A DNA stretch of 64,000 nt from an uncultured Gemmatimonadaceae bacterium (GCA_963829055.1 CAWHHI010000016.1:736001-800000); one strand, 5' to 3'. Positions 1-61,335 are shown, counted from the first letter of the stretch. Numbers and translations are program-made. Notes: generated by a model from the letters alone, not told the origin.

Positions 1-708
1 GCCTGCAGGGCGCCGCCGGCCAACAGCCGGTCGTACAGACCGTGGCGGGCAGCGCGGATGGCCGCGTTGTTCTTCATGACCTGCAGCCCTTTCGTTTTCT
101 TGCTCGGGTGCAGCGCGACGGCGAAGACGTTGACGAGCACGTATGACCGCGTTAGGCCGAGCTTCGCGAGGAAGCCCTGCGTCTTCTGCCCGGAGTCGCC
201 GACCAGCGTGCGGCGCATGAACGGCAGGCATTCGGTCGGGCCGGGGTCCGAGGCGATGCACAGCACGCGCGCGGTCCCGTCCAGGCGCCCGCGGTAGAGG
301 ACCGGGCCCGAAGTCATACCAGAAGGTCGTCGCGTCGCCGACCTCGGCGCGGTAGTCGGGGGTGGAGTCCATGAACGCCTTCATCGCGCCGGTCGGGCCG
401 GGGTCCGACTGCGCCATCTCCGCCGGCGGGATCGGGCGCAGCACGGACCGCTTCAGCTCCAAGGTATCGCCGTCGACCGTGCCCGTGAGGAGACCCCGCT
501 TCACGATCGTGAGTTCGACGACGGACCCGCCCCCGGTTCCCCGAAAGGTCTTCGCCGCCGGGTCACCCTTGAGGTTCCACCGCTGGCCCGCCAGTGACAG
601 CGTCCCCTTTGTGGCGTTCTTCATCCGGAGCGTCGCCTCCCCGACGACCGCTCCCGCGCGCGTCGCTTCGAAGTACCCTGTGGCGCCGATCGTGACTGGG
701 GCCGCCAT
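1..708 (-). CDS. Uracil-DNA glycosylase superfamily protein with ~100-aa N-terminal extension; runs off the window edge, one frameshift near 305
   Basis: Not in the ORF track; translated by hand. ATG at 708 with GGAGG RBS: MAAPVTIGATGYFEATRAG...FWYDFG/PVLYRGRLDGTARVLCIASDPGPTECLPFMRRTLVGDSGQKTQGFLAKLGLTRSYVLVNVF, which resembles the UDG-like motif pattern (YRGRLDG, xDP, LVGxxG, YVLxN). Confidence 0.7.
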   Translation of the reverse strand, partial: MAAPVTIGATGYFEATRAGAVVGEATLRMKNATKGTLSLAGQRWNLKGDPAAKTFRGTGGGSVVELTIVKRGLLTGTVDGDTLELKRSVLRPIPPAEMAQSDPGPTGAMKAFMDSTPDYRAEVGDATTFWYDFGPGPLPRAPGRDRARAVHRLGPRPDRMPAVHAPHAGRRLRAEDAGLPREARPNAVIRARQRLRRRAAPEQENERAAGHEEQRGHPRCPPRSVRPAVGRRRPAG

Positions 709-725
709 GTCCGCCTCCCGTGTTG

Positions 726-839
726 TTACGTCCCGCGTTGAATCGTTAGGCGTCGCCGCTGCAGGGCGGTGCCGCCGGAGAACTCGACCACCTCGACGAC
801 GCTGCGCCGCTTGCCCGCCCTGCCCTGCTTGGTGGTCAT
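726..839 (-). CDS. Possible small ORF (37 aa) coupled to the amidohydrolase stop
   Basis: ATGA overlap with the amidohydrolase TGA at 836-839; MTTKQGRAGKRRSVVEVVEFSGGTA...; may be frameshifted or spurious. Confidence 0.3.
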   Translation of the reverse strand: MTTKQGRAGKRRSVVEVVEFSGGTALQRRRLTIQRGT

Positions 840-2377
840 GCGTAGAACCCCGCGAGTCCGTCGAGCAGCGTCCCGTGGAAGCCCCGCCCCTTGATCGCCT
901 TGAAGAACGCGGCGTCGTGCACGAGCGAGGGCAGCGGCGGGATCACGATCTCCGCCGCGCGGTCGACGATATCGCCGGCGGGACCGAACCCGCCGGCGGG
1001 CATGTCGAGCACCAGCTCGAGCGGCGCGTCCGCCGCATCCAGCGGGCCCGCGAACGCCCGACGCCGCCGGTCCGCATGTGTAAGGGCTGCGACGGGGTCC
1101 TTGCGGACGGCATCGAGCCGGCCCTTGATGTCCTTCCACGACCACGCGTCGGCCGGCGCCTTCGGGTCGGCGATCGCGAACCGCCGCGGGATGCCCCGCA
1201 CGGTGACCGCGCTGGACTTCGTGAGCGCGGCTTGCGTCATCAACTTCGGCGTCGCCGTACCGCGGGATGCCACCGTACACCACCAGCATGACTTCGCGCT
1301 CCGTCGACTCGACGATCTGCGTCCACACGCTCTTGGTCCCGCTCGCGCGGAACACGGCGACGTCGCCTAACGCGCCCGGTTCGAGGCGGCCGACCGTCGT
1401 GCCCCAGCACCGCGAGAGGGCGTCACCCGGGTTGGTCGTCACCATCGAGACGAGTTCACGATCGGTCAGCCCGAGACCGAGCTTCTGGCTCGCAAGCCTC
1501 GCGACCTTGAGCTCCCCTTGTACGTTCTTTGTGCCGGACGGGCCCCAGTCGGACCCGATGCAGACCGACACGCCCTGCTCGCGCGCGGCCTCGATGTCCG
1601 TCGTCGTGCCGTAGAGCCAGAAGTTGGAGAAGGGCGACCAGACGACCGCGCCCGCCTTGGTCTTGTCCCAGCGCTGCCAGTCCGCCGCGGTGACCGCGTT
1701 GCAGTGGATGCCGATGAACGTTTTCTCCAGGCAGCCGGCGTTCGACGCATCAATGAACTCGCGGGCGACCAGCGAACCCGGCTGCCCCTCGGCGCAGTGG
1801 TAGATGAACCCGGCGCCCTGTTTCTGCGCCTGGGCGATCTTGCCTAGCTCGAGCGCGTCCAGGGTTAGCGTCGAGGTGCGAATGCGATTGCGGTCCGTAC
1901 CGCCGGCTGTCTCGTCGTCGACGTTACGGAGCGCCTGCACGAACTTCCGGTTGGCACTCGGCCAGCCTTGGATCGAGGTCGTCCCACCGACCAGGGCGCG
2001 GAGTTGCACGTAGGCGAGGACCGCTTCGGGCGCCGCCTGCACCAATGCGCGGGACGGGCCAGCTGATCGACGACTGATACGTCGGGGAGCTCGTCCAACT
2101 GTTGTGGTGGGCGAAGGCGATCTTCTGCTTCGGTTCCGCCCAGAGTGGCAGGGCGTTGTAGCCGATGTGGTTGTGCAGGTCGATCAGGCCCGGGACGCAC
2201 GAACGCGTTTCCGACGTCGAGGACCGGCGCGGCTGCGAACCCGCTCGGCGCCGGATCGGCGCCCTTCGTCACGCGGTCGATGCTCCCGTCGTCGGCGATG
2301 AACACCCGGCCTTGGAATACAGCGTCGGGATCGGAGCGGTCAAACGCGACTACGCGACCGGATATGACCAGCGCCAT
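836..2377 (-). CDS. Metal-dependent amidohydrolase (nucleoside/nucleobase deaminase-like, MtaD/GuaD superfamily); ~3 frameshifts
   Basis: ATG 2377 with GGAGGT RBS (MALVISGRVV); joined frames give PGLIDLHNH, GGTTSIQG, IYHCAEG, GIHCNA, WSPFSNFWLYG, IGSDWGPSG, GRLEPGALGD; ends GLAGFYA* at 836. Confidence 0.85.
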
Positions 2378-2812: not shown

Positions 2813-4792
2813 ATGCGTACCTCTGCACTCGTCGTCATTCTCGCCATTGCGCCGGGGCAACCGACGAGCCGCACCGCGGCATCCGGTGCAGAGTGTCGCC
2901 ATCTGCCGGCGGCTCCGTCTGCTCGAGCAGTTGCCAACGATAACCGGTCTGCTGCTGGTACGGTCCGCGACGGTGTGCTCACGGTCAGACTCGTCGCGCA
3001 CAACGTCGCATGGCGTCCTGACGGAGCGAATGGTTGTGCGCTGACAGTCAACGCCTTCTCTGAGGAAGGGCGACAGACGCAGATCCCGGGGCCGCTCGTT
3101 CGAGTGCGCGCGGGAACCGAAGTGCGCGTGAGCGTCCGCAACGCACTGACGAAGAGCCTCTGGGTTCGGGGACTCCAGGACCGCGCCCCCGGCGTACTGG
3201 ACTCCACCGAGATCGCTCCCGGAACAAGTCACGACTTCCGCTTCATCGCGAACACGCCAGGAGCTCGGTCCTACTGGGCGGGTCGCATCGATGCGGGCTT
3301 TCCCGTCTCCGACGCGGACGGACAACTCGTCGGAGCATTGGTGGTCGATCCACCGAACGAGGCGGGCAGCAAACCGGTGCGTGACCGCGTCATGGTACTC
3401 ACGCGATGGACCCCGGGCGGCACGCCGGAGAACCGGGGCTTCCAGGTGAATGCGTTCAACGGACGCTCATGGCCAAATACGGAGCGCCTGACCTACACGG
3501 CCGGCGACTCCGTGTTCTGGCACGTGATCAACGGGTCGGACGTTAGACACGAGATGCATTTGCACGGCTTCTACTTTCGAACCGATGCGGCCGGATTCGT
3601 CATGGAGGACGCGGGCCCGCCGCGCCTCAGCACGGGCGGAATGCGGGTGACCACCGCGTTAGGCCCAGGCATGTGGACGTCCATCGCCTGGTCGCCGGAT
3701 CGACCGGGGAACTGGCTCTTCCACTGCCACCTGCTGACGCACATGAGCGGCGCCCAGCGGCTCAATCGAATGCCCGGGGCGAGCGCCGCGAGCGCGGCTC
3801 ATGATCACGCGCCAGGCGCCGCCGCCAATCACGCGCTCGACGACATGGGCGGACTCGTGCTCAGTCTCGAGGTGCGTCCGTCTCGCGCGGCGACCGTGGC
3901 GGCGAGCGGGAACCCTGCTGCACCGCCACCGCGCCGGTCCATCGATATTTTCGCCGGCAAACGGGCCCGCACGTTCGGCGAGGCTCCGGGATATGGTTTC
4001 GTCGCGCAGGAAGGGTCCGAACCGCCCGCCCTCGATTCGATCCGGATCCCCGGTTCGCCGCTCATCCTGACGCGGGGAGAGCCGGTCCGCATCACAGTGC
4101 ACAACCGCCTAACGACTCCGCTCAGCGTGCATTGGCACGGGATCGAGCTGGACAGCTACTTCGACGGCGTCGGCGATTTCAGCGGCGCCGGGAAACGAAT
4201 TGCCCCGATGATCGCTCCCAACGACTCGTTCGTCGTGCGTTTCACGCCGCCGCGCGCCGGGACGTTCATGTATCACACGCACGGCGAGAGCGGCGAGGAA
4301 TTGGCCTCGGGTCTCTACGCGCCGTTGATCGTGCTCGAACCCGGCGCGACGTTCGACGCGCGAACGGACCGCGTCTTCATGTTGGCCGACGGCGGTCCCG
4401 GCGAGGGAAAGCCGATCTTCGTCAACGGCACCAGCACGCCCGACAGCACGCAGATGGTGGTCGGAACCACGTATCGCCTTCGCTTCATGGCCATCTCAGC
4501 CAACGAGGCGTTCGTGAGCGCGATGATCGGCCCCAGCGGCCCGGTGTCGTGGAAGCCGCTCGCGGTCGACGGCTACGAGGCGTCGTCGATTGCCCAATCG
4601 ACCGCCAGGCCGGCGCGGTACATCGCCGGCCCGGGCAAGACGACCGATGTCGCGTTCACCCCCGCGACACCCGGCGACTATGCGTTAGTGGTCGGGCAGA
4701 GCGTCGGCGGCGGTACCGCCACGAAAGGCCCCACGACGACGGTTCCGATTCGGGTCCGCGCTAACGCATCGGCTGCTCCAGGCTCGCGTTGA
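2813..4792 (+). CDS. Secreted multicopper oxidase-domain protein (four cupredoxin domains)
   Basis: ORF 2663..4792; likely start MRTSALVVILAIA (signal-like). Copper motifs HEMHLHG, WLFHCHLLTHM, SVHWHG, FMYHTH. Confidence 0.85.
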   Translation: MRTSALVVILAIAPGQPTSRTAASGAECRHLPAAPSARAVANDNRSAAGTVRDGVLTVRLVAHNVAWRPDGANGCALTVNAFSEEGRQTQIPGPLVRVRAGTEVRVSVRNALTKSLWVRGLQDRAPGVLDSTEIAPGTSHDFRFIANTPGARSYWAGRIDAGFPVSDADGQLVGALVVDPPNEAGSKPVRDRVMVLTRWTPGGTPENRGFQVNAFNGRSWPNTERLTYTAGDSVFWHVINGSDVRHEMHLHGFYFRTDAAGFVMEDAGPPRLSTGGMRVTTALGPGMWTSIAWSPDRPGNWLFHCHLLTHMSGAQRLNRMPGASAASAAHDHAPGAAANHALDDMGGLVLSLEVRPSRAATVAASGNPAAPPPRRSIDIFAGKRARTFGEAPGYGFVAQEGSEPPALDSIRIPGSPLILTRGEPVRITVHNRLTTPLSVHWHGIELDSYFDGVGDFSGAGKRIAPMIAPNDSFVVRFTPPRAGTFMYHTHGESGEELASGLYAPLIVLEPGATFDARTDRVFMLADGGPGEGKPIFVNGTSTPDSTQMVVGTTYRLRFMAISANEAFVSAMIGPSGPVSWKPLAVDGYEASSIAQSTARPARYIAGPGKTTDVAFTPATPGDYALVVGQSVGGGTATKGPTTTVPIRVRANASAAPGSR

Positions 4793-5040
4793 CTGACGAA
4801 CGAGACGCTACAACTGTGCTTGGTGGAACAGCACGTAACGAGTGCGTTAGGCGCCTCGCATCGGCGTTTACGCCCTGAGTTACAGCCGCGTTGTGCATCG
4901 TCTGCGACGGAGACACGCGATGGCGGCTTGTGGCCACTGACGTCGAAACAGCTTGCGATCGTGGCAACCGCTTCGTTGAGGTTCATCTATGATTGGGCGC
5001 TCCCTCTCCTCACGCGACGTCACACCTTGAAGGGGTCATC

Positions 5041-5887: not shown

Positions 5888-5912
5888 GCGTTCCGGCCTA
5901 ACGTCCGACGCA

Positions 5913-10570: not shown

Positions 10571-10940
10571 GACCGATTACCTCGGCGACCGTTGCTCGAT
10601 CGCCGGAACCTTCGGTCAGTATTCACGATTCAAACGCTCACCACAATTCCCGAATCTGGCGGGACCCGACTCGGCCGAAAGGGCCGACTCGTACGGGGTC
10701 GGAGGGCCACACCGTGGCGCAGCCGACAGCCACGCAGCCCAGCAGTCCCCGTGCCGGCGGCGAGCGTACGGGGAATGCGTTAGGAGGCGCGCACGGGAGT
10801 GGGCGGCGTGCCCGCCTAACGTCTGACTGCTGGGACTGCCTCAAGGTCGCGCGGTCCTGACGACTTTCATATTGGACCAAGGTCGGACAATGCGTCCCGA
10901 GCACATTGCCGACCTCTGTTCGGCGTTCATCCCTCCCCGC

Positions 10941-11135
10941 CGCCCAAGGGATTCGTCAGGACGTTGTACATTCGCGATGGGCTCTCGACGAACGGACAGC
11001 AGGAACGGACAGCACGGCCGATTTGCCGGGAAAACAACGCCCCGCCTAACGTCGGAACGTCAAACGGGGCATACGCGATGGGGCGAGATTCGAACTCGCG
11101 GTAGCTTTCAGTACACACGCTCTCCAGGCGGCGCC
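10941..11135 (-). repeat. Degenerate copy A' of the 3' half of tRNA-Ser(GGA) plus ~130 bp of its downstream flank (att-like)
   Basis: Aligns by eye with 12135-12329; includes CCTGGAGAGCGTGTGTAC...GCGAGTTCGAATCTCGCCCCATC from the anticodon arm onward. Confidence 0.92.
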
Positions 11136-11371: not shown

Positions 11372-11968
11372 GACGACATCCTCCGGGGTTGATGTGCGCC
11401 CGCGTGTGAGTCGGCATCGGGTCCGCCCCATGGCACACGGGCGAGCCATGGGCCGGCCGGCTCTGACGCCCCCGCGATGATGCCGGCCACTGGAACTCAC
11501 GTCAAGAACGGGTCTGGGGACAGGTATCCCGAGGGTATCGGGCCCGCGGTTTGCGCTGCCGTGCCGCGCCATCACGTCGCCGCACGGAAGGCCCGCCTAG
11601 GATTGGCCGGAGGGAAACCTCTTCAACAGGCGTGGCCGGCGACCCGCGTGCAGTCCGGAAGGGCCAAGGCCGGCGCGTGGTTCGTCGGCGCCGATCATCG
11701 ATGAACTTGAACCAAAGGGTCAGGGAGATGAGGCGCGCGCAGCGCCATAGATTCCCGCGGCCCGGCGAGCTGGCGTCGTTTGAGGCGCGGACGTTCAGGC
11801 AGTGGGGACCGCGCGTCGTTAGGCGCGCCGCGGCGGGCGATCGAGCGGCGGCGGAATGACCGGGACGGCAGCGGCGTGGACCTCTACTGGTGGATCGCCG
11901 CCCAGCGTGCGGCGCGCGGCCAAGCGCGTCGACGATCGGGCCGATCGAGTGAGTCAGCCGAACACGTC

Positions 11969-22141: not shown

Positions 22142-23998
<1,857 letters not shown>

Positions 23999-49020: not shown

Positions 49021-50656
49021 TCAAGCCGGGCGGTACTCTCCCCACACGGCGCGGAGTGCATCCGAGATCTCGCCCACGGTGGCGCGCGCACGAACCGCGT
49101 CCACGATGAGCGGCATCAGGGCCGTCCTCGGCGTCGCGGCCGATTCCGCATACGGCGGCGCGGCTGCACGCACGGCGGCGAGCACCGCGTTCACACGCTC
49201 ACTATCGCGTTTCGCGCGCACGGCGGCCACGCGCTCGACCTGCTCGCGCTCGAGGGTCGAGAAATCCGGGCGTCGGAATCGCCGGCGCGTCGTTGCCATC
49301 AGTGAATCGATTGACGCCGACGACCACGGTCTCGCCTGCTTCGACTCGCAGCTGATGCGCATACGCACTGCGCGCGATCTCTTCCTGGAAAAACCCGGCG
49401 GCGATAGCACGTTCGGCGCCGCCAAGCTCATCGACTTTCTCGATCAGCGCGATCGCCTGTCGCTCGATCTCGGTCGTCAGGGATTCCACGTAGTAGCTGC
49501 CCGCGAGTGGATCGACGGTGTTCGCGATGCCCGACTCATAGCCGACGATCTGCTGCGTGCGTAACGCGAGCGTTGCTGCTTCCGCGGTAGGCAGCGCGAG
49601 CGCCTCGTCGTAGCCGTTGGTGTGCAACGACTGCGTACCGCCTAACGTCGCTGCCAGCGTCTGGACCGCCACGCGAACCACGTTGTTGAGCGGCTGCTGC
49701 GCCGTCAGTGTGACGCCGCCGGTCTGCGTGTGAAAACGCAATCGACAGCTCGCATCGCCCGCCCCGAACCGCTCGCGCATGAGGCGACTGTAGATCCGGC
49801 GCGCCGCGCGGAACTTCGCGACTTCCTCGAACAGGTCGCTGTGGGCGGCGAAGAAGAACGAGAGGCGCGGCGCGAAGCCATCGACGGCGAGTCCTGCAGC
49901 GAGGGCCTGCTTCACGTACTCGATGGTGTTCGCAAACGTGAACGCGAGCTCCTGCACCGCCGTCGATCCCGCCTCGCGGATGTGATACCCGGAGATCGAT
50001 ATGGGATTCCACTCCGGAACCTCCGCCGCGCAGAATCGGAAGATCTCGGCGATGAGCGCGAGACTGGGCAGCGGCGGGTAGATGTACGTGCCGCGCGCGA
50101 TGTACTCCTTCAGCACATCGTTCTGAATCGTCCCGCTCACCTGCTGACGCGAGATGCCGCGTTCTTCAGCGGCGACGATGTACATCGCCAGCAGCACGCC
50201 CGCGGTCGCGTTGATGGTCATGGACGTCGACACGGACTCGAGCGGCAGCCGCGCGAGCAGGACGTGCATGTCCTCCACGGAATCGATCGCGACACCCACG
50301 CGTCCCACTTCGCCGAGGGCTCGCGGCGAGTCCGAGTCGATGCCCATCTGCGTTGGAAGGTCGAACGCGACCGAGAGGCCCGTCTGCCCAGCGGCGAGGA
50401 GATGCTGGAAGCGCTCGTTCGTCTCCGCCGCTGTTCCGAAGCCGGCGTACTGGCGCATCGTCCAGAGCCGGCCGCGGTACATCGTGGGCTGCACGCCGCG
50501 CGTGTACGGGAATCGACCCGGGTCCCCGAGGTCGCGGGCGTAGTCGGTCGGCGCGTCGTTAGGCCGGTACACCGGCGCGATGGGGATGCCGGACGGCGTG
50601 ACGCGTTCGCCGGACGAGTTGGCGGCTGATGCGGTCGGGCGGGACGTGGCGGTCAG
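49021..50656 (-). CDS. Methylmalonyl-CoA mutase-like large (substrate-binding) subunit; frameshift near 49280, start uncertain
   Basis: [83 protein letters not shown]. Confidence 0.92.
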
Positions 50657-50876: not shown

Positions 50877-50903
50877 CGTGTTTCGCGCCGCCGCTCCGAC
50901 CGC

Positions 50904-51938: not shown

Positions 51939-51940
51939 GG

Positions 51941-52342: not shown

Positions 52343-54562
52343 CGCCCGCCCCCCGCCTCTACGCTGACAGCGCGACCATCAGTGCGCACGACGACGGTCC
52401 CGAGTTGATCGGTCCGAAGCACCTGGGCACCTGCCTCGCCTAAAGCCCGCACCACGTCGATGCTTGGGTGCCCATATGTGTTCGCGGCGCCGACGGACAC
52501 GAGCCCCACGCGCGGCTGCACGGCGGCGAGAAACGCCGGGGTCGTGCTGGTCCGGCTGCCATGGTGCCCGACCTTGAGGACGTCGGCTCTCAGGCCATCC
52601 GCGTTATGCGCCAGCATCCATTCCTCCTCGCCCGCCTCGGCGTCCCCGGTCATGAGGAATCGTACCTGCCCGTACTGCACCAGCGCCACCGCGCTCGCCT
52701 CGTTCGCATCGCTGAGCGACGCCGTCCACGACGAGTCCGGCGCCAGAAACCGGATGCGCACGCCGTCGATGTCGAGCGAGTCATCAGGATGCACGCGGCG
52801 CCACGCGACATGGTGCTGAGCGGCGGCCTCGAGCGACTCACGGTACGGCGTACTGCCAGCGATGTACGCCGCATCCCAGTACTCGGCCGGTTCGAGCGCG
52901 CTGACCACCGATGCTCCGCCTCCGACGTGGTCGCTGTGCGGATGCGAGAGCACGAACGCGTATACCTCACCGCCGCGCCGGCGGATGTAAGGGATCACAG
53001 TCGAGCGACCAGCGTCGCCACCAATCCAGCTTCGGCCGGCATCGAACAGAATCCATCGGCCTCTCGGGGTGCGGAGCGCAAGCGCGTCACCCTGCCCCAC
53101 ATCGATCATGTGCATCTCCATGACGCCGCCGCCGCCTGATATCTGAACACCGAGAGCGATGGCGGCGCACGCGAGGCCGCCGAGGATGAGACTCCGCGCG
53201 CGCCACGCGCTTCCGGGAGCGCTGGCACACGCGACGACGAGCGAAGCCGAGACGACGCCAAGCAACCCCGCCGTCCATAACGTGGGCGCGACCGGCACCG
53301 CGGCGAACGGGATTCGCGTCGAAACGTTGGCGACGACATCGACTGCCTGAAGCAGCACGTGCGCAGCATTCGCCGGAAACGCGGCAACCGCGGGGACAGG
53401 TGACAGTACGAGTGCGAGGAACAGCGTTGGCTGCAGTACCGTGAAGATCGGCCCGGCCGCCAGATTCGCGAGCGGCGCGACAATGCTCACGCGACCGAAC
53501 GTCCAGGCGATGAGCGGTAGCGACACGATCGAGGCAAGTGTCGATACGATGAGGTCTCGGGCAATCACCCGTCGCCAGCCGGTCACGCGCCCAGCGAGCA
53601 CGTGTCTCGCGAGCGCGCCGGACGCGATGAGCGCCGCCAAACCGGCGACGCTCAACTGGTAGCCGAGATCCACCATGATGCGCGGATTCACGAGCGGGGC
53701 CCAAGCCCCGAGCGCCAACGCCGCCCACGGAGACGTTGGTCGTTGCGTTAGGCGGGAGAGGGCGCTGGCGCCCAGCATGACGGCCGAGCGCACGGCCGGT
53801 GCGGGAGCGCCAATGACGACGACGTAGAGTGCAGTGATGATGAGTGCGAGCCACGTCGATGCGGCGCGCGATGCACGGGCGGCGGACAGCAGCAGCTCGA
53901 CGGCTCCCGCAATGATCGCGACGTGCAGCCCGGACACGGACAACAGATGTACGATGCCGGCATCCGCATAACGCGACCGGATCCCGGCATCGAGGGTGCG
54001 CGTGTCGGCGATCAGGAGCGCCCTCGCGAGAGATGCGTCGGATCCGAACGTCGCGTCTATCGCGCGACCGGCGCGCTCGCGCCACCGCCGTGCGAGGTCC
54101 GGACCCGCGCGGACCGCAAGCGTCGCGTGCTGCACGATGATGACAGTACCGGCGTGGGCCGCATCTCCACCGACCGTGACGCGGGAGCCCGCGACCGCAA
54201 CACCGTGTTGGACGAGGAGACTGGCGCGCATGGCGCAGCCATGATCGTCCACGGTGGCGGGGACGCGAGCCCCGGGACGCGCATCGGCTCTCGACGACGG
54301 CCGTGTAAACGACATGGGCGTCCGCCTCCGCCGTCGCGGGGATCGCCGCCCGCTCGCAGCGCGCGTCCGCATCCGCGGCGACCTTCGCCCGGAGGACGCC
54401 CGCGACCGCGAGCAGGCCCAGAGCTCCAAGCCTCGCGTCGCGGCGAGCGACGGCTGCCATCCCCATCGCGGCTGACGCGAGCAGCCCGGCTAACGAAGCG
54501 CCGCCGAACCCGAGAAGGAGTCCGGCGGCGTGAGCGATGAACGCGGCGGTGATGAGCGGCAA
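52330..54562 (-). CDS. comEC: DNA internalisation competence protein ComEC/Rec2; frameshifts near the 5' end
   Basis: AGIVHLLSVSGLHV, APAVRSAVM, GYQLS, IDVGQGDA, SHPHSDHVGG, LKVGHHGSRTS, NTYGHP, RTDQLG. Confidence 0.93.
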
Positions 54563-54574
54563 GAGAGTCTCCTG

Positions 54575-56205: not shown

Positions 56206-56304
56206 CGCGTACACGTGGTGAGCTGAGGCGTGCGAGGACCCGGTACGGCAGGGTCTTACGGGCAAGCCAAGAATACTAATCGCGGGAGCCTCGGGGCGAA
56301 CGTT

Positions 56305-56450: not shown

Positions 56451-57656
56451 GCAGGCGCGGAGCGCCTCCGCGCCGCCTTCCAGTCGTGCCCGGAACCGCG
56501 CACCACGCGGAATGGTCGGATCCACGGCGACCGTCAGATAGTCCTCCGTCAGCCCCTCGCGCTGCGCCCCGCTCCCGATCGCGACCACGTCGCACTCCTG
56601 CCCTGCCCTCTCGGCGCGATGCCGCTCCACACACGCGTCGCCGATTGCGCGTAGTTCTCTGGCACGTCGATCAGCCACCACCCCATCCACGCGCGATGGC
56701 AGACGTTCCGCGGACGTTCCCGGACGAAGCGAGAACGGAAACACGTGCAGGTACGTGAACGGCAGAGACTCGATCAGCGCGACAGTCGCTGCGTGATCGG
56801 CATCCGTCTCGCCTGGAAAGCCCACGATCACGTCCGCGCCGAGCGCGAATGGTGCATAACGCGAGACCATCCGTTCCACCGCACCGGCGTAGGTCGCCGC
56901 CGTGTACCAGTGGCGACCCATGCGCTTGAGGAGCACGTCCGACCCCGACTGCAGCGGCGCATGCAGGTGAGGCACGAGTCGCGTGCGGTCGGCGAACAGA
57001 TCGAAGAGCCGATCATCGACCTCCGTCGCCTCGAGTGAGCTCAGACGGAAGCGCACCCGCGGCACGGCGAGCACGAGTCGCTCGACGAGCGCCGAGAGAG
57101 ACTCGCCAGTGTCGACGCCGAAGTGGCCAATGTGGATGCCGGTCAGCACGATCTCCGGATGCCGATCGGCGAGGCGCGACGCTTCGTCCACCAGCGCGTC
57201 GACGTCACGCGACCGCGCGGCGCCGCGCGCGAGCGTCGTGGCGCAGAACGTACAATGCTCGTCGCAACCGTCCTGGATGCGCAGGAGCGCGCGCGTGCCC
57301 GTCTGCACGTTAGGCGCACGCTCCGGAGCCCGGAACCCAAGCGCCGCCGCAACGGCGACGACGTCCGCACCAGGAACGACGCGATCGACGGACGGTAGCG
57401 ATGCAATCGCCCCGTCATCGCGAGCAGCCGCGCAGCCCATGACGACCGTCTGTAGATCCGGGCGCACGCGGGCCGCGCGGCGAACGCTCTGCCGCAGGTC
57501 TGCCTCCGCGGCGGCAGTAACGGCGCAGCTGTTGAACACGGCAGCGTCGGCGAGATCCGGTGTCGCGACGATCTCGCCGCCGGACGCCTCGATCATCGCC
57601 CGCACCGCCTCCGTATCGTACTGATTCGCTCGGCACCCGAACGTTCGGAGGTACAC
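56343..57656 (-). CDS. mtaB: tRNA t6A37 methylthiotransferase (MtaB-like)
   Basis: YLRTFGCRANQYD, NSCAVT, RIQDGCDEHCTFC, RLSSLE, YLHVFPFSLRPGT. Confidence 0.85.
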   Translation of the reverse strand: MYLRTFGCRANQYDTEAVRAMIEASGGEIVATPDLADAAVFNSCAVTAAAEADLRQSVRRAARVRPDLQTVVMGCAAARDDGAIASLPSVDRVVPGADVVAVAAALGFRAPERAPNVQTGTRALLRIQDGCDEHCTFCATTLARGAARSRDVDALVDEASRLADRHPEIVLTGIHIGHFGVDTGESLSALVERLVLAVPRVRFRLSSLEATEVDDRLFDLFADRTRLVPHLHAPLQSGSDVLLKRMGRHWYTAATYAGAVERMVSRYAPFALGADVIVGFPGETDADHAATVALIESLPFTYLHVFPFSLRPGTSAERLPSRVDGVVADRRARELRAIGDACVERHRAERAGQECDVVAIGSGAQREGLTEDYLTVAVDPTIPRGARFRARLEGGAEALRACVIPSDAAAVIPSGSGRISSVCDGSSEPRSWPGSDA

Positions 57657-57719
57657 CCTTCGTCGCGAGCGCTGCTCAGGGCAGGCGCTGGCCGCGTGCG
57701 GCTCGTCAGGCGGGCGCGG

Positions 57720-58919
57720 TCACGACGCAACGCCCGCTCCCGCGCTGGCCCGTGCCACTGGCGCGGAGGGCGGCCGAACCGGGAGGAGGATGTGGAACGC
57801 GCTGCCCGCGCCTTCGGTGCTCTGCACCCAGATGCGTCCGCCGTGCGCTTCGACCACGAGGCGGCAGAACGCGAGGCCGAGCCCGGAGCTGCGAACGCGC
57901 GGGACGTTAGGCGTCTTCACACTCTCGAACTTGTGGAAGATGACCTCGTGATACTGCGGCGGGATTCCCGGTCCATTGTCCGCGACGGTGAACAGCACGC
58001 CGCGCGGATCGATGCGCGCGAACATCCGCAACTCGACGGCGGTCGACGAGTGCACGAGCGAGTTCTGAATCAGATTGCCGAACACACGCTTGAGGAGCGC
58101 GCGATCCGCCATGAACGTCGGAGCGTCGGCCGTAACTTCGATCTTGGTGACGGCGCGCTCCTGCTGCAGGCGAAGCGCCCAATCCTGCATGATCTCGGTC
58201 ACGAGTGTGGCGGGCGCCAACGGCTCGAGATCGAGCGCGATCGATGTCTCCTCGATGCGCGCGACCTCGAGCAGATCCTCGATGAGGTGCAGCAGTTCCT
58301 GCGCCTTGTTCTCCGTATCGCGAAGCGCGCCGTGCTGCGACACGCCGACGGGACCGAGATCGCCGTCGGCCAGCATCTCGAGCGTGGCGATGATGGACGT
58401 GAGCGGCGTCTTGAGGTCGTGGACGATCATCTTCATGAGATCGTCGCGCACCTTCTCCAACTCGCGCAGCTTGCGGTAGCTGTCCTCGAGCGCGTCGGTC
58501 GCCGCCTTGAGCTTGAGCAGGCTCCGCACGCGCGCGCCGAGCACCATGCGGTTGTGCGGCTTCGTGAGGAAGTCGTCGCCGCCGGCCTCGATCGCCTTCA
58601 CGCGATCCGTCGTGTCGTTGAGGGCGGTGACAAAGATGACGGGGATACGCGCCGACCGGGCATCACGCTTGATTCGGCGGCAGACCTCGAACCCCGTCGC
58701 TCGATCATCGACGCCCAGATCACCGGCAGGCATGGACACGTCGAGAATCGCGAGCTCCGGGCGATGCTCGAAACAGGCAGCGAGGGCGGACGGACCGTCC
58801 TGCGCCGTCACGGTCCGGTACCCGAGCGTGTGCAGCTGATCGATCAACAACTCGACGTTCGCCGGAACGTCGTCGGCTATGAGAATGAGCGGCGCGTCGG
58901 GGCGGACTGGCTGCGTCAT
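57720..58919 (-). CDS. Hybrid response regulator/histidine kinase (REC-HisKA-HATPase)
   Basis: LILIADD, ILDVSMP, DFLTKP, VHDLKTPL, DNGPG, GLGLAFCRLVVEAHGG. Confidence 0.92.
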   Translation of the reverse strand: MTQPVRPDAPLILIADDVPANVELLIDQLHTLGYRTVTAQDGPSALAACFEHRPELAILDVSMPAGDLGVDDRATGFEVCRRIKRDARSARIPVIFVTALNDTTDRVKAIEAGGDDFLTKPHNRMVLGARVRSLLKLKAATDALEDSYRKLRELEKVRDDLMKMIVHDLKTPLTSIIATLEMLADGDLGPVGVSQHGALRDTENKAQELLHLIEDLLEVARIEETSIALDLEPLAPATLVTEIMQDWALRLQQERAVTKIEVTADAPTFMADRALLKRVFGNLIQNSLVHSSTAVELRMFARIDPRGVLFTVADNGPGIPPQYHEVIFHKFESVKTPNVPRVRSSGLGLAFCRLVVEAHGGRIWVQSTEGAGSAFHILLPVRPPSAPVARASAGAGVAS

Positions 58920-58923
58920 GGGC

Positions 58924-60066
58924 TCAGGGCCGGACGATCAACCCCAGACCGAACGTCCACGAACGTTCCTTGGCGTCAATGCTCCCCGCGGTGCGATACG
59001 CCCGTTCGACGTAGAGGTCGATCGATGCGCGCCCGCGTGCGAGTGGCGCGCCGGTGCCGAACGTGAACGCGGCCTCCTCCACGCTCTGCGTGCCAGCGAG
59101 AAACGGCAACTCGCGATAACGCGCGCCCGCGCGGAGCGCGAGCTGCGCCCCAATGAGGTTAGGTCCGACCGCGTCGACCCCAAGACCGAAATCCCACGTG
59201 TCCTGAGGGGTCGCACGCTCGGAGCCCAGCCCTGCCATGCGCGACCAGATCGTGCGATCGCTGCGGAATGCGACCACGATACCAGAATTCTCGTACCGGA
59301 CGCCGGCACCCAGGCGCGACGGAGCATCCGCAGTGGTCCGTACAGTATCGGACTCTCGCAGCTTGAGCGTGCCGCCATAGCGCCCAGAGGCACCGAGGGT
59401 GATGGTTTTGACCGGCCGCCACATTATTCCCGCCGACACGCCAGCTCCCGAATAGTTGACGTTGATCGAGTCACGGAACGGCGCGAAGCTGAGCGAATCG
59501 TCGTATTCGCGTGACAGTGACAGCCGGTTCTCGCCCGGGAACACGTGAATCCCCAGGCCGAAAATGATGTTCTCGCGGAACGCCCACGCGCCCCCGACGC
59601 GCACATCGTTGATCGCTCCCTCGGAGCGGAACCGCTCCGTGAAGGCCACGGAATCGCCGTCGAACACCTGCTTGGCGCGCGTTTCTGTTCCCCATGTGCG
59701 ATCGAGCATCGTGGAGAACGATATGCTGAGAACGCCCCGCTCCGTGATGGGCACGGCGGCGGAAAAAAGAGGGAATCGATTGGACCGTGTCGAGCCAGAG
59801 CTACCTTCCGTTTCGATCGAGCGACTCTCCTGCTCGCTCTGCAGATACATGCCGCCGCGACGCAACGTGATGAGCGCGGCCGGGTTGATCGGCGAGAGCG
59901 GATCTGTCTCCCCGGTCGCCCCACCAAGGGAACGCGAATACGCGCTCAACTGGCCCGGCGGATACCCGAACCCTTGCGCGCCAAGCGTCGCCTGCGCGGC
60001 CGCGCGCGATGCGACGAGGGCCAACGCACAACCGATGGCGTAGCGAGTCACTGCGGTCTGACGCAT
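58924..60066 (-). CDS. Putative outer-membrane beta-barrel (FadL/OmpP1-like)
   Basis: Signal peptide, GFGYP...RSLGG...SPINPAA plug-like segment, alternating strands, C-terminal WTFGLGLIVRP. Confidence 0.7.
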   Translation of the reverse strand: MRQTAVTRYAIGCALALVASRAAAQATLGAQGFGYPPGQLSAYSRSLGGATGETDPLSPINPAALITLRRGGMYLQSEQESRSIETEGSSGSTRSNRFPLFSAAVPITERGVLSISFSTMLDRTWGTETRAKQVFDGDSVAFTERFRSEGAINDVRVGGAWAFRENIIFGLGIHVFPGENRLSLSREYDDSLSFAPFRDSINVNYSGAGVSAGIMWRPVKTITLGASGRYGGTLKLRESDTVRTTADAPSRLGAGVRYENSGIVVAFRSDRTIWSRMAGLGSERATPQDTWDFGLGVDAVGPNLIGAQLALRAGARYRELPFLAGTQSVEEAAFTFGTGAPLARGRASIDLYVERAYRTAGSIDAKERSWTFGLGLIVRP

Positions 60067-61335
60067 CACGGAATTCCGAGCTCAACCTTGTTCACGTACG
60101 TGATTCGGAGCCGCGGCCGCTGCGCTGGCGCAGCCTTGCTCGAATAGAACAGCACCACGGGCGCCGACGCACCTTCGGTCGCCGCACGCAACACGATGGC
60201 GCGCTGTAGCGACGACGCGCCGATCGCTTTCCACTCGCGCAACGCACCGACGATCTCGATGGCGCGCTGCCCGCTCTCGTTAGGCCGGAACCGCAAGCGA
60301 GTCGATCTCGAGCGCCGGTGGATTCAGAATGCCGGCCGACTTGACGACATCGGCGAGCGAAACCGCCGCGCGCACCACCTGCGGATAGATCGTCAACGAA
60401 TCGGCTGCGTCCACTGAATTCGTAGGCACCTGCGTCAACAACAACGTCGCCCGCACCACCGTGGCCGAGGAGTCGACGAGGCGAGAGGGGACGTCGAACC
60501 GCAGATAGGTTCGCTGCGACGGCAAGCCTCCGACACCAAGCAAGTTGCCGGCAACGGTCGAGGGACTGAAGGCGACGAGCTGATAGTCGGTGAGATCGCT
60601 CCGCAACGTTGGGTTGTCCGTGGGCGTCGACGACGACGGACTGTTGATGATGGCTTTTACCGTCGTGTCGGGTGATGCGTCGTAGCTCAGTGTCGGCGCG
60701 CCACCGCCATCGCGGGAGACGATCCGGATCTGCGCTGATGCCGCGCTCTGCACGCGGAACCCAAGCCGGAGCCGCCGAGGCGCCGTCCCGGTGAGCTTGC
60801 CCAGCACCTTGTCGTTGAAGAGCGGGACGCGCAGCGTGTCCTTCAACTCGGTAACGGCGTACGTCCTGCCGCCAATCAACCGATCGGGACGGAACAGCGA
60901 GAGCGCCACAGAGGTCGCTGTATCGGCGGCCGTCGTGTCGACGTCGTACACCTGGAGGCTCACGGGCGCGGTGGCCTTGGTGCCGGTGGTGTCCAGCCTC
61001 AGCGTCACCATCGAGCTGTCGACCGTGTAGATCGCGCTGTCAGCCCCACCGCGCGTGAATCGCTGCGTGAGCGTATCGAACCGCATCACCGCTCGCGTGT
61101 CGAGCGTGTCGCCACGAGACGCAACGAGGAGGAACGTCTCCGTACCGATCACGGGATAGCCGAGCACCGTGGTGTCGACCGCCATGAACGTCTCGAGCAC
61201 CGTGTCGCGCGAAACGATGTTCTGCTCGGGGCAAAGCGACGGGCACCCCGCCGTACTGTTCAGATCTTCCGAACACGCGGCGACGGTTCCCGCCACGCCG
61301 GCAACCAACACCATCAACCAGAACCGATTACGCAA
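60066..61335 (-). CDS. Lipoprotein (possibly DUF4270-like); frameshift near 60296
   Basis: Lipobox GTVAAC, beta-rich body, RTYLRFDVP, C-terminal FYSS...RPRLRITY. Confidence 0.65.

What the first reader, a model, noticed from the sequence alone, without database searches (positions are those of the whole stretch)
150..60285. Dispersed octamer CGTTAGGC/GCCTAACG at ~1 copy per 1.6 kb: candidate undescribed DNA-uptake or HIP1-like genome signal
Seen in sequence: 40 exact copies counted by eye. CGTTAGGC (24) at 150, 744, 3657, 4845, 11817, 16026, 19183, 19970, 23855, 25653, 25981, 27555, 28552, 29255, 30471, 34085, 41126, 44953, 45632, 50557, 53746, 57308, 57905, 60278. GCCTAACG (16) at 1365, 4107, 5896, 10814, 11044, 13873, 15704, 27322, 28847, 37359, 40928, 44467, 46893, 47463, 48087, 49640. 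About 11 one-mismatch copies also occur (e.g. 10778, 12148, 20393, 24951, 26879, 30055, 48931, 55503). At an estimated ~68% GC, a single-base model predicts only ~2-3 copies, and TA dinucleotides look scarce elsewhere. Established knowledge: Neisseria DUS, Pasteurellaceae USS and cyanobacterial HIP1 are short motifs at roughly this density, in both orientations and inside genes; Chi and KOPS are strand-polarised, which this motif is not obviously. Inference: a lineage-specific recognition site for DNA uptake, recombination, methylation or nucleoid organisation. I know of no description of such a motif for this lineage. It also contains the integron core GTTRRRY (GTTAGGC).
Basis: partly seen in the sequence, partly recalled or inferred. 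Interest (0 to 1): 0.92.

Follow-up and report, generated by a model that had tools for sequence, protein, structure and literature searches.

The report
Hyper-abundant DNA word in Gemmatimonadaceae
This bacterium and roughly a third of the genera in its family have written the eight-letter DNA word CGTTAGGC thousands of times through their genes against normal codon choice, much as bacteria with self-DNA uptake tags do; the word is also the recombination core of the family's integron gene cassettes, and what reads it is unknown.

Summary
All 40 copies are at the stated places (shuffles give 0.9), and the genome (7.78 Mb, Gemmatimonadaceae) holds 5,004 copies, 17-49 times more than composition or low-order Markov nulls and about 21 times more than a synonymous-codon shuffle.

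The word is exactly 8 bp with uninformative flanks. It is not strand-polarised (52% on the G-rich strand). Copies avoid each other within about 300 bp. It is kept at orthologous sites (28 of 44 versus about 19% for other 8-mers). It has nearly doubled one encoded tripeptide.

At least 24 of 68 sampled genera of the family are enriched, and sister lineages sit at baseline. Outside the family I saw enrichment in only two genera.

In poor relatives the same word is the R' core of genuine integron attC sites. The dispersed copies have no attC structure, and IntI presence does not track enrichment.

The best reading (0.42) is a DUS/USS-like uptake-and-recombination drive. The reader protein is unidentified. 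Vsr and three methyltransferase families were not found in this genome, and a ComP-type receptor was not found in any of the five genomes searched.

I found no published description. This scan noted the word twice before on other genomes.

The parts
150..157 (+). CGTTAGGC copy; template strand of a crude CDS call, reads G-L-T
744..751 (+). CGTTAGGC copy; outside my crude CDS calls
1365..1372 (-). CGTTAGGC copy; outside my crude CDS calls
3657..3664 (+). CGTTAGGC copy in multicopper-oxidase gene, coding strand, A-L-G
4107..4114 (-). CGTTAGGC copy in multicopper-oxidase gene, template strand, R-L-T
4845..4852 (+). CGTTAGGC copy; outside my crude CDS calls
5896..5903 (-). CGTTAGGC copy, coding strand, T-L-G
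10814..10821 (-). CGTTAGGC copy; outside my crude CDS calls
11044..11051 (-). CGTTAGGC copy; outside my crude CDS calls
11817..11824 (+). CGTTAGGC copy; outside my crude CDS calls
13873..13880 (-). CGTTAGGC copy in PMT_2-family gene, coding strand, T-L-G
15704..15711 (-). CGTTAGGC copy in ClpB, coding strand, V-R-R
16026..16033 (+). CGTTAGGC copy in ClpB, template strand, R-L-T
19183..19190 (+). CGTTAGGC copy, template strand, S-L-T
19970..19977 (+). CGTTAGGC copy, template strand, P-N-D
23855..23862 (+). CGTTAGGC copy in SelB-like GTPase gene, template strand, P-N-V
25653..25660 (+). CGTTAGGC copy; outside my crude CDS calls
25981..25988 (+). CGTTAGGC copy; outside my crude CDS calls
27322..27329 (-). 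CGTTAGGC copy, coding strand, P-L-G
27555..27562 (+). CGTTAGGC copy; outside my crude CDS calls
28552..28559 (+). CGTTAGGC copy, template strand, R-L-T
28847..28854 (-). CGTTAGGC copy, coding strand, V-R-R
29255..29262 (+). CGTTAGGC copy, template strand, P-N-V
30471..30478 (+). CGTTAGGC copy, template strand, P-N-A
34085..34092 (+). CGTTAGGC copy in PTS enzyme I gene, template strand, R-L-T
37359..37366 (-). CGTTAGGC copy, coding strand, V-R-Q
40928..40935 (-). CGTTAGGC copy in RibBA gene, coding strand, A-L-G; kept in G004 and G003, one-off variant in G005 and G014
41126..41133 (+). CGTTAGGC copy in RibBA gene, template strand, C-L-T; kept in G001, G005, G014
44467..44474 (-). CGTTAGGC copy in RibD gene, coding strand, A-L-G; CGCTCGGC/T in G004 and G003
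44953..44960 (+). CGTTAGGC copy, template strand, P-N-A
45632..45639 (+). CGTTAGGC copy, template strand, G-L-T
46893..46900 (-). CGTTAGGC copy, coding strand, A-L-G
47463..47470 (-). CGTTAGGC copy, coding strand, A-L-G; kept in 4 of the 5 relatives compared
48087..48094 (-). CGTTAGGC copy, coding strand, A-L-G; kept in all 5 relatives compared
49640..49647 (-). CGTTAGGC copy in methylmalonyl-CoA mutase gene, coding strand, T-L-G; kept in all 5 relatives compared
50557..50564 (+). CGTTAGGC copy in methylmalonyl-CoA mutase gene, template strand, P-N-D
53746..53753 (+). CGTTAGGC copy inside the ComEC homologue, template strand, R-L-T
57308..57315 (+). CGTTAGGC copy in radical-SAM (UPF0004) gene, template strand, P-N-V
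57905..57912 (+). CGTTAGGC copy, template strand, P-N-V
60278..60285 (+). CGTTAGGC copy, template strand, P-N-E

Best explanation
CGTTAGGC is a lineage-specific recognition word on double-stranded DNA. Copies arise in place by point substitution, mostly synonymous and some changing the protein. A directional process then keeps them in this genus and in many other Gemmatimonadaceae genera.

The most likely process is the one accepted for the DUS of Neisseriaceae and the USS of Pasteurellaceae. A component of the DNA-uptake machinery prefers fragments that carry the word. Homologous recombination of such fragments then spreads word-creating alleles through the population (molecular drive, with or without selection for self-DNA).

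Shown here: the enrichment, its exact 8-bp extent, the lack of polarity, the short-range exclusion, conservation at orthologous sites, the effect on the proteome, the patchy taxonomic range, and the presence of general uptake genes.

Inferred, not shown: that any cell takes up DNA, that uptake prefers the word, and which protein reads it.
For: Enrichment:
- 5,004 copies against 297 (base composition), 102 (order-2 Markov) and 257 (order-3 Markov) expected.
- 3,142 copies in crude CDS against 130-155 in 10 within-gene synonymous-codon shuffles.
- 1,265 of 2,712 TTA codons lie in the word.

Anatomy:
- The flanks carry almost no information, so it is not part of a longer element.
- O/E falls from 17-49 at 0 mismatches to 1.1-1.26 at 1 mismatch and 0.83-0.87 at 2 mismatches.

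Strand behaviour:
- Both strands are equal. 52.0% of copies lie on the G-rich strand (1,515 / 1,399) and orientation runs are near random.

Spacing:
- The mean gap is 1,529 bp.
- Pair density is 0.22 of expectation below 100 bp, 0.45 at 100-200 bp and about 1 beyond 500 bp, in either orientation.
- Treangen et al. 2008 (section 7 read) state that one DUS suffices, that close pairs add nothing, and that mean DUS spacing is about 1.1-1.5 kb.

Proteome:
- 10-46% of the peptide contexts that can carry the word do so.
- P-N-[VADEG] is 1.80 times as frequent in rich as in poor genomes, with the reversed-order control at 0.97.
- Findlay and Redfield 2009 (abstract read) report that uptake sequences about doubled their tripeptides.

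Maintenance:
- The word is kept at 28 of 44 orthologous comparisons in four congeners, against about 19% for all other 8-mers in the same alignments. In G014 the figures are 4 of 8 against 12%.
- Where it is lost, the alternatives are synonymous Leu-codon variants.

GC3:
- Density rises with GC3, from 0.34 to 0.82 copies per kb. This fits long residence or frequent recombination.

Barcode behaviour:
- Three stretches that carry divergent second copies of single-copy genes (47-59% identical) have 0 to 2 copies in 31-50 kb.

Taxonomic range:
- Density is typical for each genus. It is enriched in 24 of 68 sampled genera of the family (my hand tally).
- Baseline genomes match Markov expectation.

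Uptake genes:
- ComEC lies in the window.
- DprA is found in 29 of 31 relatives and secretin in 30 of 31.
- Type IV pilin genes are present.
Against: - No uptake, competence or transformation has been shown for any member of this phylum. In my search none of the 12 listed papers mentions Gemmatimonas.
- The general machinery does not separate rich from poor genomes. ComEC, ComEA-like, DprA, secretin and GspH-like hits occur in both.
- No ComP_DUS-family receptor passes the cut-off in 5 genomes.
- G000 itself has only a weak partial ComEA-type HhH match (35 bits).
- Known uptake sequences sit as inverted pairs in terminators about half the time (preprint abstract). Here only 30 of 4,984 neighbouring pairs are inverted and within 100 bp.
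- One-mismatch forms are barely over-represented, whereas Bakkali 2007 (passages read) found clear over-representation of singly mismatched forms.
- Every signature listed as support would also follow from any strong per-site selection for a DNA-binding protein.
- The identity with the integron core is not explained by this reading alone.
Confidence: 0.42

Rival explanations
1. The word is the binding site of an abundant chromosomal DNA-binding protein that works in place (nucleoid organisation, or a positive 'self' mark read by a nuclease or defence system). Each copy is kept by selection on that function, with no role in uptake.
For: The sharp 8-bp specificity, the conservation at orthologous sites, and the orientation-independent exclusion zone of about 300 bp (which could be a footprint or saturation distance) all fit. 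So do the genus-typical densities and the absence of the word from foreign DNA. Nothing I tested separates this reading from uptake.
Against: No candidate protein was found. I know of no nucleoid protein with a 16-bit asymmetric site that has rewritten codons and peptides at this scale (recalled, not tested). The known self-marking words Chi and KOPS are polarised, and this word is not. Sister lineages do without the word entirely, which is odd for a core chromosomal function.
Confidence: 0.22
2. The word is read by a tyrosine recombinase of the integron-integrase/Xer kind. The dispersed copies are half-sites (R-box cores) that serve or exploit that enzyme, for example as landing or docking sites that couple the chromosome to the cassette pool.
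For: - The 8-mer is letter for letter the R' end of real attC sites in relatives. These are about 95-nt imperfect palindromes with R'' = GCCTAAC and conserved L arms. They recur every 500-650 bp in one orientation between small ORFs, beside an intI fragment, on a contig that also carries ClpB.
- G000 has an IntI at the family cut-off, with a short run of same-strand cores next to it.
- By my estimate, a chance match of an arbitrary 8-mer to this 7-mer core has a probability of about 2e-4 before allowing for the number of other known motifs it could have matched.
Against: - Only 1 of 5,002 dispersed copies has the attC arm.
- The favoured base before the word differs: C is the least common in G000 (16%), whereas the attC sites have C or T.
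- IntI does not track enrichment. It is over the cut-off in poor G007, G008, G009, G016 and G115. It was not found over the cut-off in rich G002 and G004, and it is broken into three frames in G014.
- Copies inside essential genes would be hazardous insertion sites.
- I can see no mechanism by which a recombinase would multiply its own half-site by point substitution.
Confidence: 0.12
3. The word is produced by biased repair or gene conversion tied to a DNA methyltransferase or a sequence-specific nickase. This is a very-short-patch-type drive, as has been discussed for palindromic HIP words.
For: Two-mismatch neighbours are depleted (0.83-0.87), as if drained into the word. G-to-A variants at positions 2, 6 and 7 of the word (CATTAGGC, CGTTAAGC, CGTTAGAC) are very rare (13, 24 and 24 copies).
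Against: - Vsr (PF03852) was not found in G000 or G014.
- C5 methyltransferase (PF00145) was found in 0 of 5 genomes.
- PF01555 and PF02384 were not found in G000, but they are present in poor genomes.
- The word is not palindromic.
- Repair bias does not predict a 300-bp exclusion zone.
- Caveats: G000 is 86% complete, and other methyltransferase families were not searched.
Confidence: 0.08
4. The word is a polar chromosome signal of the Chi or KOPS kind.
For: It is an 8-mer at kilobase density, as Chi is. There is a slight excess on the G-rich strand (52.0%, p = 0.03).
Against: 52% is far from the strong skew of Chi and KOPS (recalled: about 75% and higher in E. coli). There is no correlation with gene strand. 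Orientation runs are near random.
Confidence: 0.02
5. The copies are remnants of a mobile element or of attC sites, or an assembly artefact.
For: The word occurs inside attC sites in relatives.
Against: - The flanks are uninformative.
- Copies lie in frame in conserved housekeeping genes without indels, and congeners show synonymous variants at the same sites.
- The same enrichment is seen in dozens of independently assembled genomes.
- The one abundant repeat I met, a MITE-like element of about 100 nt, does not contain the word.
Confidence: 0.01

Closest known systems
DNA uptake sequences: DUS of Neisseriaceae and USS of Pasteurellaceae
   Same: - A short non-palindromic word at about one copy per 1-1.5 kb.
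- Both strands equal.
- Found inside genes in preferred frames, with its tripeptides about doubled.
- Close pairs are not favoured.
- Kept at orthologous sites.
- Restricted to related genera.
- Missing from foreign DNA.
(papers read.)
   Different: - A different phylum.
- Only 8 bp, with no informative flanks.
- Almost no inverted pairs or terminator copies.
- One-mismatch forms are barely enriched.
- No ComP-family receptor was found.
- No dialects were seen in six other sampled genera.
- Uptake is untested.
- The word equals an integron recombination core.
HIP1 (GCGATCGC) of cyanobacteria
   Same: A hyper-abundant octamer written into genes, evolutionarily conserved, non-random in spacing, and now proposed as an uptake recognition sequence (preprint 10.64898/2026.06.24.733823; abstract and discussion read).
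   Different: - HIP1 is palindromic and is recognised by two methylases (DmtA, DmtC).
- This word is asymmetric, and three common methyltransferase families were not found in G000.
- HIP1 is said to span nearly a whole phylum. This word is patchy within one family.
Integron attC recombination site, R' core
   Same: Letter-for-letter identity of the 8-mer with the R' end of attC sites in Gemmatimonadales chromosomal integrons. The 7-mer core also appears in class 1 / Vibrio attC constructs in the primer list of PMC12614218.
   Different: The dispersed copies lack R'', the L arms, the hairpin, the single orientation, the cassette spacing and the neighbourhood of intI. IntI presence does not track enrichment.
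Chi and KOPS
   Same: Octamer length and kilobase-scale density.
   Different: Those words are strongly co-oriented with replication (recalled). This one lies 52:48.

Membership tests
DNA uptake sequence (DUS/USS type) | Short word over-represented genome-wide by an order of magnitude or more | tested here: met
   5,004 observed against 102-297 expected. About 21 times a synonymous-codon shuffle.
DNA uptake sequence (DUS/USS type) | Both orientations equally frequent, with no replichore polarity | tested here: met
   2,547 / 2,457 copies on the two strands. 52.0% on the G-rich strand.
DNA uptake sequence (DUS/USS type) | Copies in coding frames that raise the frequency of the encoded tripeptides | tested here: met
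   P-N-[VADEG] is 1.80 times as frequent in rich as in poor genomes, control 0.97. Based on crude gene calls and on 4 rich and 4 poor samples that are not independent. Compare the Findlay and Redfield abstract.
DNA uptake sequence (DUS/USS type) | Spacing of about one per conversion-tract length, with close pairs not favoured | tested here: met
   Mean gap 1,529 bp. 71 gaps of <=100 bp against 315 expected. Pair density 0.22 of expectation below 100 bp. Conversion-tract lengths were not measured.
DNA uptake sequence (DUS/USS type) | Frequent inverted pairs forming terminators | tested here: not met
   30 inverted neighbour pairs within 100 bp among 4,984 gaps. Compare 'about half in terminators' in the preprint abstract.
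DNA uptake sequence (DUS/USS type) | Singly mismatched forms clearly over-represented | tested here: inconclusive
   O/E is 1.10-1.26 for all one-mismatch words pooled. End-position variants are enriched 5-7 times under the order-3 model.
DNA uptake sequence (DUS/USS type) | Uptake and processing machinery encoded (ComEC, ComEA, DprA, secretin/type IV pilus) | tested here: met
   ComEC lies in the window. DprA and secretin are present in G000. ComEA-type HhH gives only 35 bits in G000. The same genes are present in poor genomes too, so this does not discriminate.
DNA uptake sequence (DUS/USS type) | A cognate sequence-specific receptor (ComP in Neisseriaceae) | tested here: not met
   PF16732 gave no match over the cut-off in G000, G014, G062, G008 or G115. 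One 20.7-bit hit is an ordinary PilA-type pilin.
DNA uptake sequence (DUS/USS type) | Competent cells take up word-bearing DNA preferentially | not testable with these tools
   Needs culture and uptake assays.
HIP1-type highly iterated palindrome | Palindromic word | tested here: not met
   The reverse complement GCCTAACG differs from CGTTAGGC (read directly from the sequence).
HIP1-type highly iterated palindrome | Cognate DNA methyltransferases in the genome | tested here: not met
   PF00145, PF01555 and PF02384 gave no match in G000. G000 is 86% complete, and other methyltransferase families were not searched.
Integron attC site | Imperfect palindrome R''-L''...L'-R' able to fold as a single strand | tested here: not met
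   1 of 5,002 dispersed copies has the L' arm and the flanks are uninformative. The feature is met for the arrays in relatives.
Integron attC site | Arrayed in one orientation beside intI, separating small cassettes | tested here: not met
   The dispersed copies are interleaved on both strands across all contigs. G000 has only a short candidate array, at C20:209826-218227.
Chi / KOPS polar signals | Strong co-orientation with replication | tested here: not met
   1,515 against 1,399 copies (52.0%). Spearman 0.16 with GC skew in 50-kb bins.

The most novel reading that the evidence does not exclude
The word is an incoming-DNA recognition tag that these bacteria share with, or recruited from, the recombination core of their integron cassettes. 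Under this reading, a reader on the uptake or processing path prefers DNA carrying CGTTAGGC. Transformation would then import both self DNA and attC-bearing cassette DNA, and the genome-wide spread of the word would be the footprint of that preference.

This would physically couple natural transformation to integron cassette capture. A 2025 paper shows the two processes can feed each other in Vibrio: single-stranded DNA taken up by transformation is a substrate for cassette excision and recruitment (PMC12614218; abstract and passages read).
Probability: 0.12. Interest if true: 0.95.

Novelty: new variant of a known kind. Interest (0 to 1): 0.8.

Why it matters
Sequence-specific self-DNA tags are established in only two proteobacterial families, and HIP1 of cyanobacteria has only recently been proposed as a third case.

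A fourth case would show that such tags are a recurrent solution. This one sits in a poorly studied and mostly uncultured phylum. Densities run from Markov baseline to one copy per 0.8 kb among sister lineages of a single family.

It also offers what the classical systems lack: many natural on/off contrasts. Examples are the two subclades of genus g52, and G010 against G008.

The word has practical use as a lineage barcode. Here it exposed about 128 kb of probable chimeric sequence in the assembly.

The exact identity with the integron attC core, if it is not chance, would link two major routes of gene acquisition.

Tried and rejected
- **Longer repeat or MITE:** rejected. The flanks carry almost no information, and the one abundant MITE-like element lacks the word.
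- **attC remnants:** rejected. 1 of 5,002 copies has the arm.
- **Maximal-order Markov null:** uninformative, because the sub-words are themselves dominated by the word (order 5-6 expectations of 4,755-5,066). I used orders 0-3 and codon shuffles instead.
- **Replichore or gene-strand polarity:** rejected. An apparent one-strand run in two g51 genomes was an artefact of listing order.
- **Dialects or other hyper-abundant words in six other sampled genera:** none found in samples of 40-120 kb.
- **Avoidance of the word in poor genomes:** rejected; they sit at Markov expectation.
- **Motif-free stretches as prophages or islands:** the three large ones are probable chimeric or contaminant DNA instead. 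The five medium ones are mixed and gave no clean answer.
- **Driver candidates that did not separate rich from poor genomes:**
  - Vsr, PF00145, PF01555 and PF02384.
  - ComEA-type HhH, ComEC, DprA and secretin.
  - IntI.
  - ComP_DUS and GspH/FimT-type pilins.
- **First ClpB tree:** spoiled by antisense ORFs and discarded. Rebuilt from tblastn matches.
- **Gene calling:** my first call (51% coverage) was too strict. The second (72%) is still crude, so every coding-context number is approximate.

Full report
**1. Observation**

100 dinucleotide-preserving shuffles gave a mean of 0.90 and a largest value of 4. One side remark needs correcting: there are 68 one-mismatch words, not about 11.

The window is G000:C16:736001-800000 of a 7.78-Mb, 20-contig assembly with 66-67% GC. 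The assembly is listed as 85.9% complete and 3.95% contaminated. The best ClpB match among named genomes is a Gemmatimonadaceae MAG at 82% identity, followed by other Gemmatimonadales.

**2. Size of the excess**

- The genome holds 5,004 copies (2,547 / 2,457).
- The word is the 14th most frequent 8-mer and the only one of the top 30 that contains TA.
- Expected counts are 297 (base composition), 131, 102 and 257 (Markov orders 1-3). Higher orders are swamped by the word's own sub-words.
- Under order 3 it is the strongest outlier of all 8-mers with at least 200 copies. Most of the next entries are its own shifted versions.
- With a crude gene call of my own (72% of the genome), 3,142 copies lie in CDS. 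Ten shuffles of synonymous codons within each gene gave 130-155. Those shuffles keep the rare codons that the word itself inflates.
- 1,265 of the 2,712 TTA codons in my CDS set lie inside the word.
- tRNAs for TTA, CTA and AGG are present.

**3. Anatomy**

An alignment of all copies with 15 bases on each side shows full information at exactly eight positions and almost none outside. Position -1 disfavours C (16%) and position +8 is G in 46%. The copies are therefore not pieces of a longer repeat.

Pooled by mismatch load, O/E is 17-49 at 0 mismatches, 1.10-1.26 at 1, 0.83-0.87 at 2, and about 1 beyond that. Among single variants, the ends tolerate change: TGTTAGGC has 435 copies and CGTTAGGT has 827. 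Positions 2, 6 and 7 of the word do not: CATTAGGC, CGTTAAGC and CGTTAGAC have 13-24 copies.

In genes the word uses only the four frames that avoid its two stop codons. It reads [SPTA]-L-G, V-R-x, x-L-T or P-N-x. Of all such peptide contexts, 22%, 10%, 20% and 46% respectively are spelled with the word. In the window, 31 of 40 copies lie in my CDS calls. These include two in ClpB and one in a ComEC homologue.

**4. Polarity and spacing**

- Orientation does not follow GC skew (Spearman 0.16 in 145 bins of 50 kb) or gene strand (0.10).
- With smoothed skew on the large contigs, 1,515 copies lie on the G-rich strand and 1,399 on the other, i.e. 52.0%.
- Orientation runs number 2,415 against about 2,502 expected.
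- The mean gap is 1,529 bp, but short gaps are scarce: 71 of <=100 bp against 315 expected, and 218 of <=200 bp against 611.
- The pair-correlation function is 0.22, 0.45, 0.77 and 0.89 in the first four 100-bp bins and about 1 beyond 500 bp. It is the same for same-strand and opposite-strand pairs and has no periodicity.
- Inverted neighbour pairs within 100 bp number only 30.

**5. Maintenance and turnover**

Four congeners and one other rich genus (G014) match window 40001-60000 at 70-85% DNA identity. In BLAST alignments of that stretch:

| Genome | Word kept at G000's sites |
|---|---|
| G001 | 8 of 10 |
| G005 | 7 of 10 |
| G004 | 8 of 13 |
| G003 | 5 of 11 |
| G014 | 4 of 8 |

All other 8-mers in the same alignments are fully conserved at 18-20% in the congeners and at 12% in G014. 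A first pass with short queries gave similar counts. These comparisons share ancestry and are not independent.

Where the word is absent, the relative usually has a synonymous Leu-codon variant such as CGCTCGGC or CGTTGGGC. Each relative also has sites that G000 lacks. Copies therefore arise and vanish by point substitution in place and are held longer than neutral sequence.

Occupancy of permissive contexts is high, so the sites shared between G000 and G014 do not prove common descent of individual copies.

**6. Effect on proteins and relation to codon bias**

- P-N-[VADEG] is found 174 times in 164,753 codons of four rich samples and 57 times in 97,131 codons of four poor samples, a ratio of 1.80. 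The same residues in reverse order give 0.97.
- V-R-[LPHQR] gives 1.31 (control 1.05).
- The two Leu contexts change little.
- Gene calls are crude and the samples are related.
- Word density rises steadily with GC3, computed with the word masked: from 0.34 per kb in the lowest decile to 0.82 per kb in the highest (Spearman 0.22). The word is therefore commonest in the most strongly GC3-biased genes.

**7. Where the word is missing in G000**

Three stretches at or near contig ends have 0 to 2 copies:
- C6:5440-55037
- C6:591808-623330
- C11:1-46789

Their GC is 0.66-0.73. They encode housekeeping proteins, many of them split: chorismate synthase, DAHP synthase, FtsK, PepA, GreA, GlnA, FolD and IlvD. 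FtsK, AroC, DAHP synthase, PepA and FolD each have a second copy elsewhere in G000 that is only 47-59% identical. I read these stretches as chimeric or contaminant sequence from a distant organism.

Five gaps of 12-16 kb are mixed. One has a plasmid-type replication initiator with efflux and MerR genes. The others have ordinary metabolic genes.

**8. Taxonomic range**

*Nearest relatives (31 genomes).* All seven genomes of the genus have 2,501-5,112 copies. G014 has 6,360 in 5.1 Mb, G010 has 605, G030 has 345 and G018 has 194. The rest have 3-65.

*Family survey (251 genomes, 68 genera, completeness at least 80%).* Counts run from 2 to 7,821. By my hand tally of that table, whose genome sizes are rounded:
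- 24 genera have at least one genome with 100 or more copies per Mb.
- 3 genera lie at 30-100 copies per Mb.
- 41 genera lie below 30 copies per Mb.

Density is typical of a genus. For example, it is about 1,150-1,340 per Mb in all 6 genomes of g9, about 470-650 in all 7 of g51, and about 190-230 in all 7 of g76.

*Phylum survey (301 genomes).* The 230 genomes outside the family include only one enriched genus: f2 g102, with five genomes at 181-1,061 copies. The other 225 have at most 91 copies.

*Baseline check.* Poor genomes sit at Markov expectation: 2.8-14 copies per Mb observed against 6-10 expected at order 2. Samples of 40-120 kb from six other genera show no hyper-abundant word of their own.

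*Tree.* On a single-gene ClpB tree (FastTree, local supports):
- The window's genus is monophyletic.
- G010 (605 copies) is sister to G008 (28 copies), with support 99.
- In genus g52, a rich pair (G233, G152) is sister to a baseline pair (G115 with 66 copies, G253 with 8), with support 98. ClpB is only about 83% identical between the two pairs.

The trait is therefore patchy. A species tree is needed to count gains and losses.

*Unpublished genomes.* G013, G048, G094, G241, G256, G304, G331 and G400 appear in these tables, and G013 also appears in the ClpB trees. Seven of them are baseline rows and G094 is a mild one (138 copies). No conclusion here depends on any of them.

**9. The integron connection**

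In poor relatives the few copies cluster in one orientation every 500-650 bp between small ORFs (G021:C95, G021:C80, G019:C3). Each copy ends a conserved imperfect palindrome of about 95 nt: R'' GCCTAAC(A), paired L arms with bulges, a variable loop, then (C)GTTAGGC. These fold at -20 to -42 kcal/mol with DNA parameters.

G021:C80 carries an intI fragment beside its array, and G021:C95 also carries the ClpB orthologue. These are therefore genuine chromosomal integrons, and the 8-mer is their attC R' end.

IntI (TIGR02249) passes its cut-off in 18 of 31 relatives. G000 is among them, at C20:208041-208958, with a short run of same-strand cores next to it.

The dispersed copies of G000 are a different thing:
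- 1 of 5,002 has the L' arm.
- The base preferred before the word differs.
- IntI does not track enrichment. It is present in poor G007, G008, G009, G016 and G115. It was not found over the cut-off in rich G002 and G004. It is split into three frames in G014.

The identity is unlikely to be chance, by my estimate about 2e-4 for the 7-mer before allowing for other known motifs. I cannot explain it.

A 2025 paper shows that DNA taken up by transformation is a substrate for cassette excision and recruitment in Vibrio (PMC12614218; abstract and passages read). That makes a functional link between uptake and attC sites conceivable.

**10. Search for a reader or driver**

| Family | Result |
|---|---|
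| Vsr | not found in G000 or G014 |
| C5 methyltransferase (PF00145) | 0 of 5 genomes |
| PF01555, PF02384 | none in G000, present in poor genomes |
| ComEA-type HhH | weak in G000 (35 bits), present in rich and poor genomes |
| ComEC | present in all five g52 genomes (weaker and split in G253) |
| Secretin | 30 of 31 relatives |
| DprA | 29 of 31 relatives |
| ComP_DUS | nothing over the cut-off in five genomes |
| GspH-type | weak hits in both rich and poor genomes |

One 20.7-bit ComP_DUS hit is an ordinary PilA-type pilin. No candidate separates rich from poor genomes. All absences are 'not found in those searched', and G000 is 86% complete.

**11. Reading**

The signatures match point for point what is published for DUS and USS:
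- kilobase spacing with no benefit from close pairs (Treangen et al. 2008, section 7 read);
- tripeptides about doubled, and absence from genes without homologues (Findlay and Redfield 2009, abstract read);
- accumulation by point mutation with a steep fall by mismatch load (Bakkali 2007, abstract and passages read).

HIP1, the other famous octamer, is now also proposed as an uptake sequence (preprint 10.64898/2026.06.24.733823, abstract and discussion read).

I therefore rank an uptake-plus-recombination drive first, at 0.42. The differences are:
- no terminator pairs (against the preprint abstract 10.1101/2025.10.24.684340);
- a very sharp specificity;
- no known receptor;
- no evidence of competence in the phylum.

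An in-place binding function (0.22) predicts the same statistics and cannot be excluded. A recombinase-linked reading (0.12) rests on the attC identity alone. A repair or methylation drive (0.08) lacks its enzymes here. Polar signals and element remnants are close to excluded.

**12. Novelty**

Four searches found no paper describing this word as a genome signal or reporting uptake sequences in this phylum:
- the two 8-mers;
- Gemmatimonad terms combined with uptake, octamer and integron terms;
- the 7-mer combined with over-representation;
- Gemmatimonas combined with competence terms.

Only open-access papers and bioRxiv were searched, and supplements were not read.

This scan itself noted the same word twice before on other Gemmatimonadota genomes (e1-7736792, e1-7737463), the second with the integron match. 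I saw those notes only after reaching the same points. They are not independent evidence.

Noticed in passing
G000:C6:5440-55037, G000:C6:591808-623330, G000:C11:1-46789 (outside the window): Three stretches at or near contig ends have 0 to 2 copies of the word and GC of 0.66-0.73. They carry fragmented housekeeping genes whose second copies elsewhere in the genome are only 47-59% identical. They are probably chimeric or contaminant sequence in this assembly.
   Followed up: partly
window 50760-50890 (between the methylmalonyl-CoA mutase and FBPase genes): A palindromic MITE-like repeat of about 100-130 nt, with terminal inverted repeats of the TGTCATTCCGAGCG type. It folds at -85 kcal/mol, has 377 BLAST hits in G000 and well over 100 listed matches in congeners, and contains no copy of the 8-mer. 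It explains the odd top words of the maximal-order Markov list.
   Followed up: partly
L001 (G021:C95:1-20000), L002 (G019:C3:1-9000), L003 (G021:C80:1-7000): Sedentary chromosomal integron arrays in Gemmatimonadales relatives. They have very homogeneous attC sites of about 95 nt and cassettes of about 500-650 bp. Cassette contents were not examined.
   Followed up: partly
G000:C20:208041-218300 (outside the window): G000's own integron integrase scores 265.7 bits, just at the family cut-off. It is followed by a run of same-strand GTTAGG cores about 0.5-2 kb apart that may be a short cassette array. The attC structure was not checked.
   Followed up: no
window 52330-54429 (-): A ComEC homologue (Competence plus metallo-beta-lactamase domains) that itself carries one copy of the word at 53746.
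   Followed up: no
G000:C16 about 540000 (outside the window): Cumulative GC skew peaks at about 540 kb on this contig, next to a Xer-type recombinase gene (C16:540795-541592). This may be the replication terminus / dif region.
   Followed up: no
G014:C182:835-1781 and G253:C61:11929-12584: The IntI of the word-rich G014 is split over three reading frames. The ComEC of the baseline G253 matches in two pieces with a weak score. These are either broken genes or assembly errors.
   Followed up: no
literature search: The last six letters of the word equal the C. elegans telomere repeat unit, which is why a telomere paper appears among the hits for the 8-mer, beside primer-table papers. I see no biological link.
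   Followed up: no
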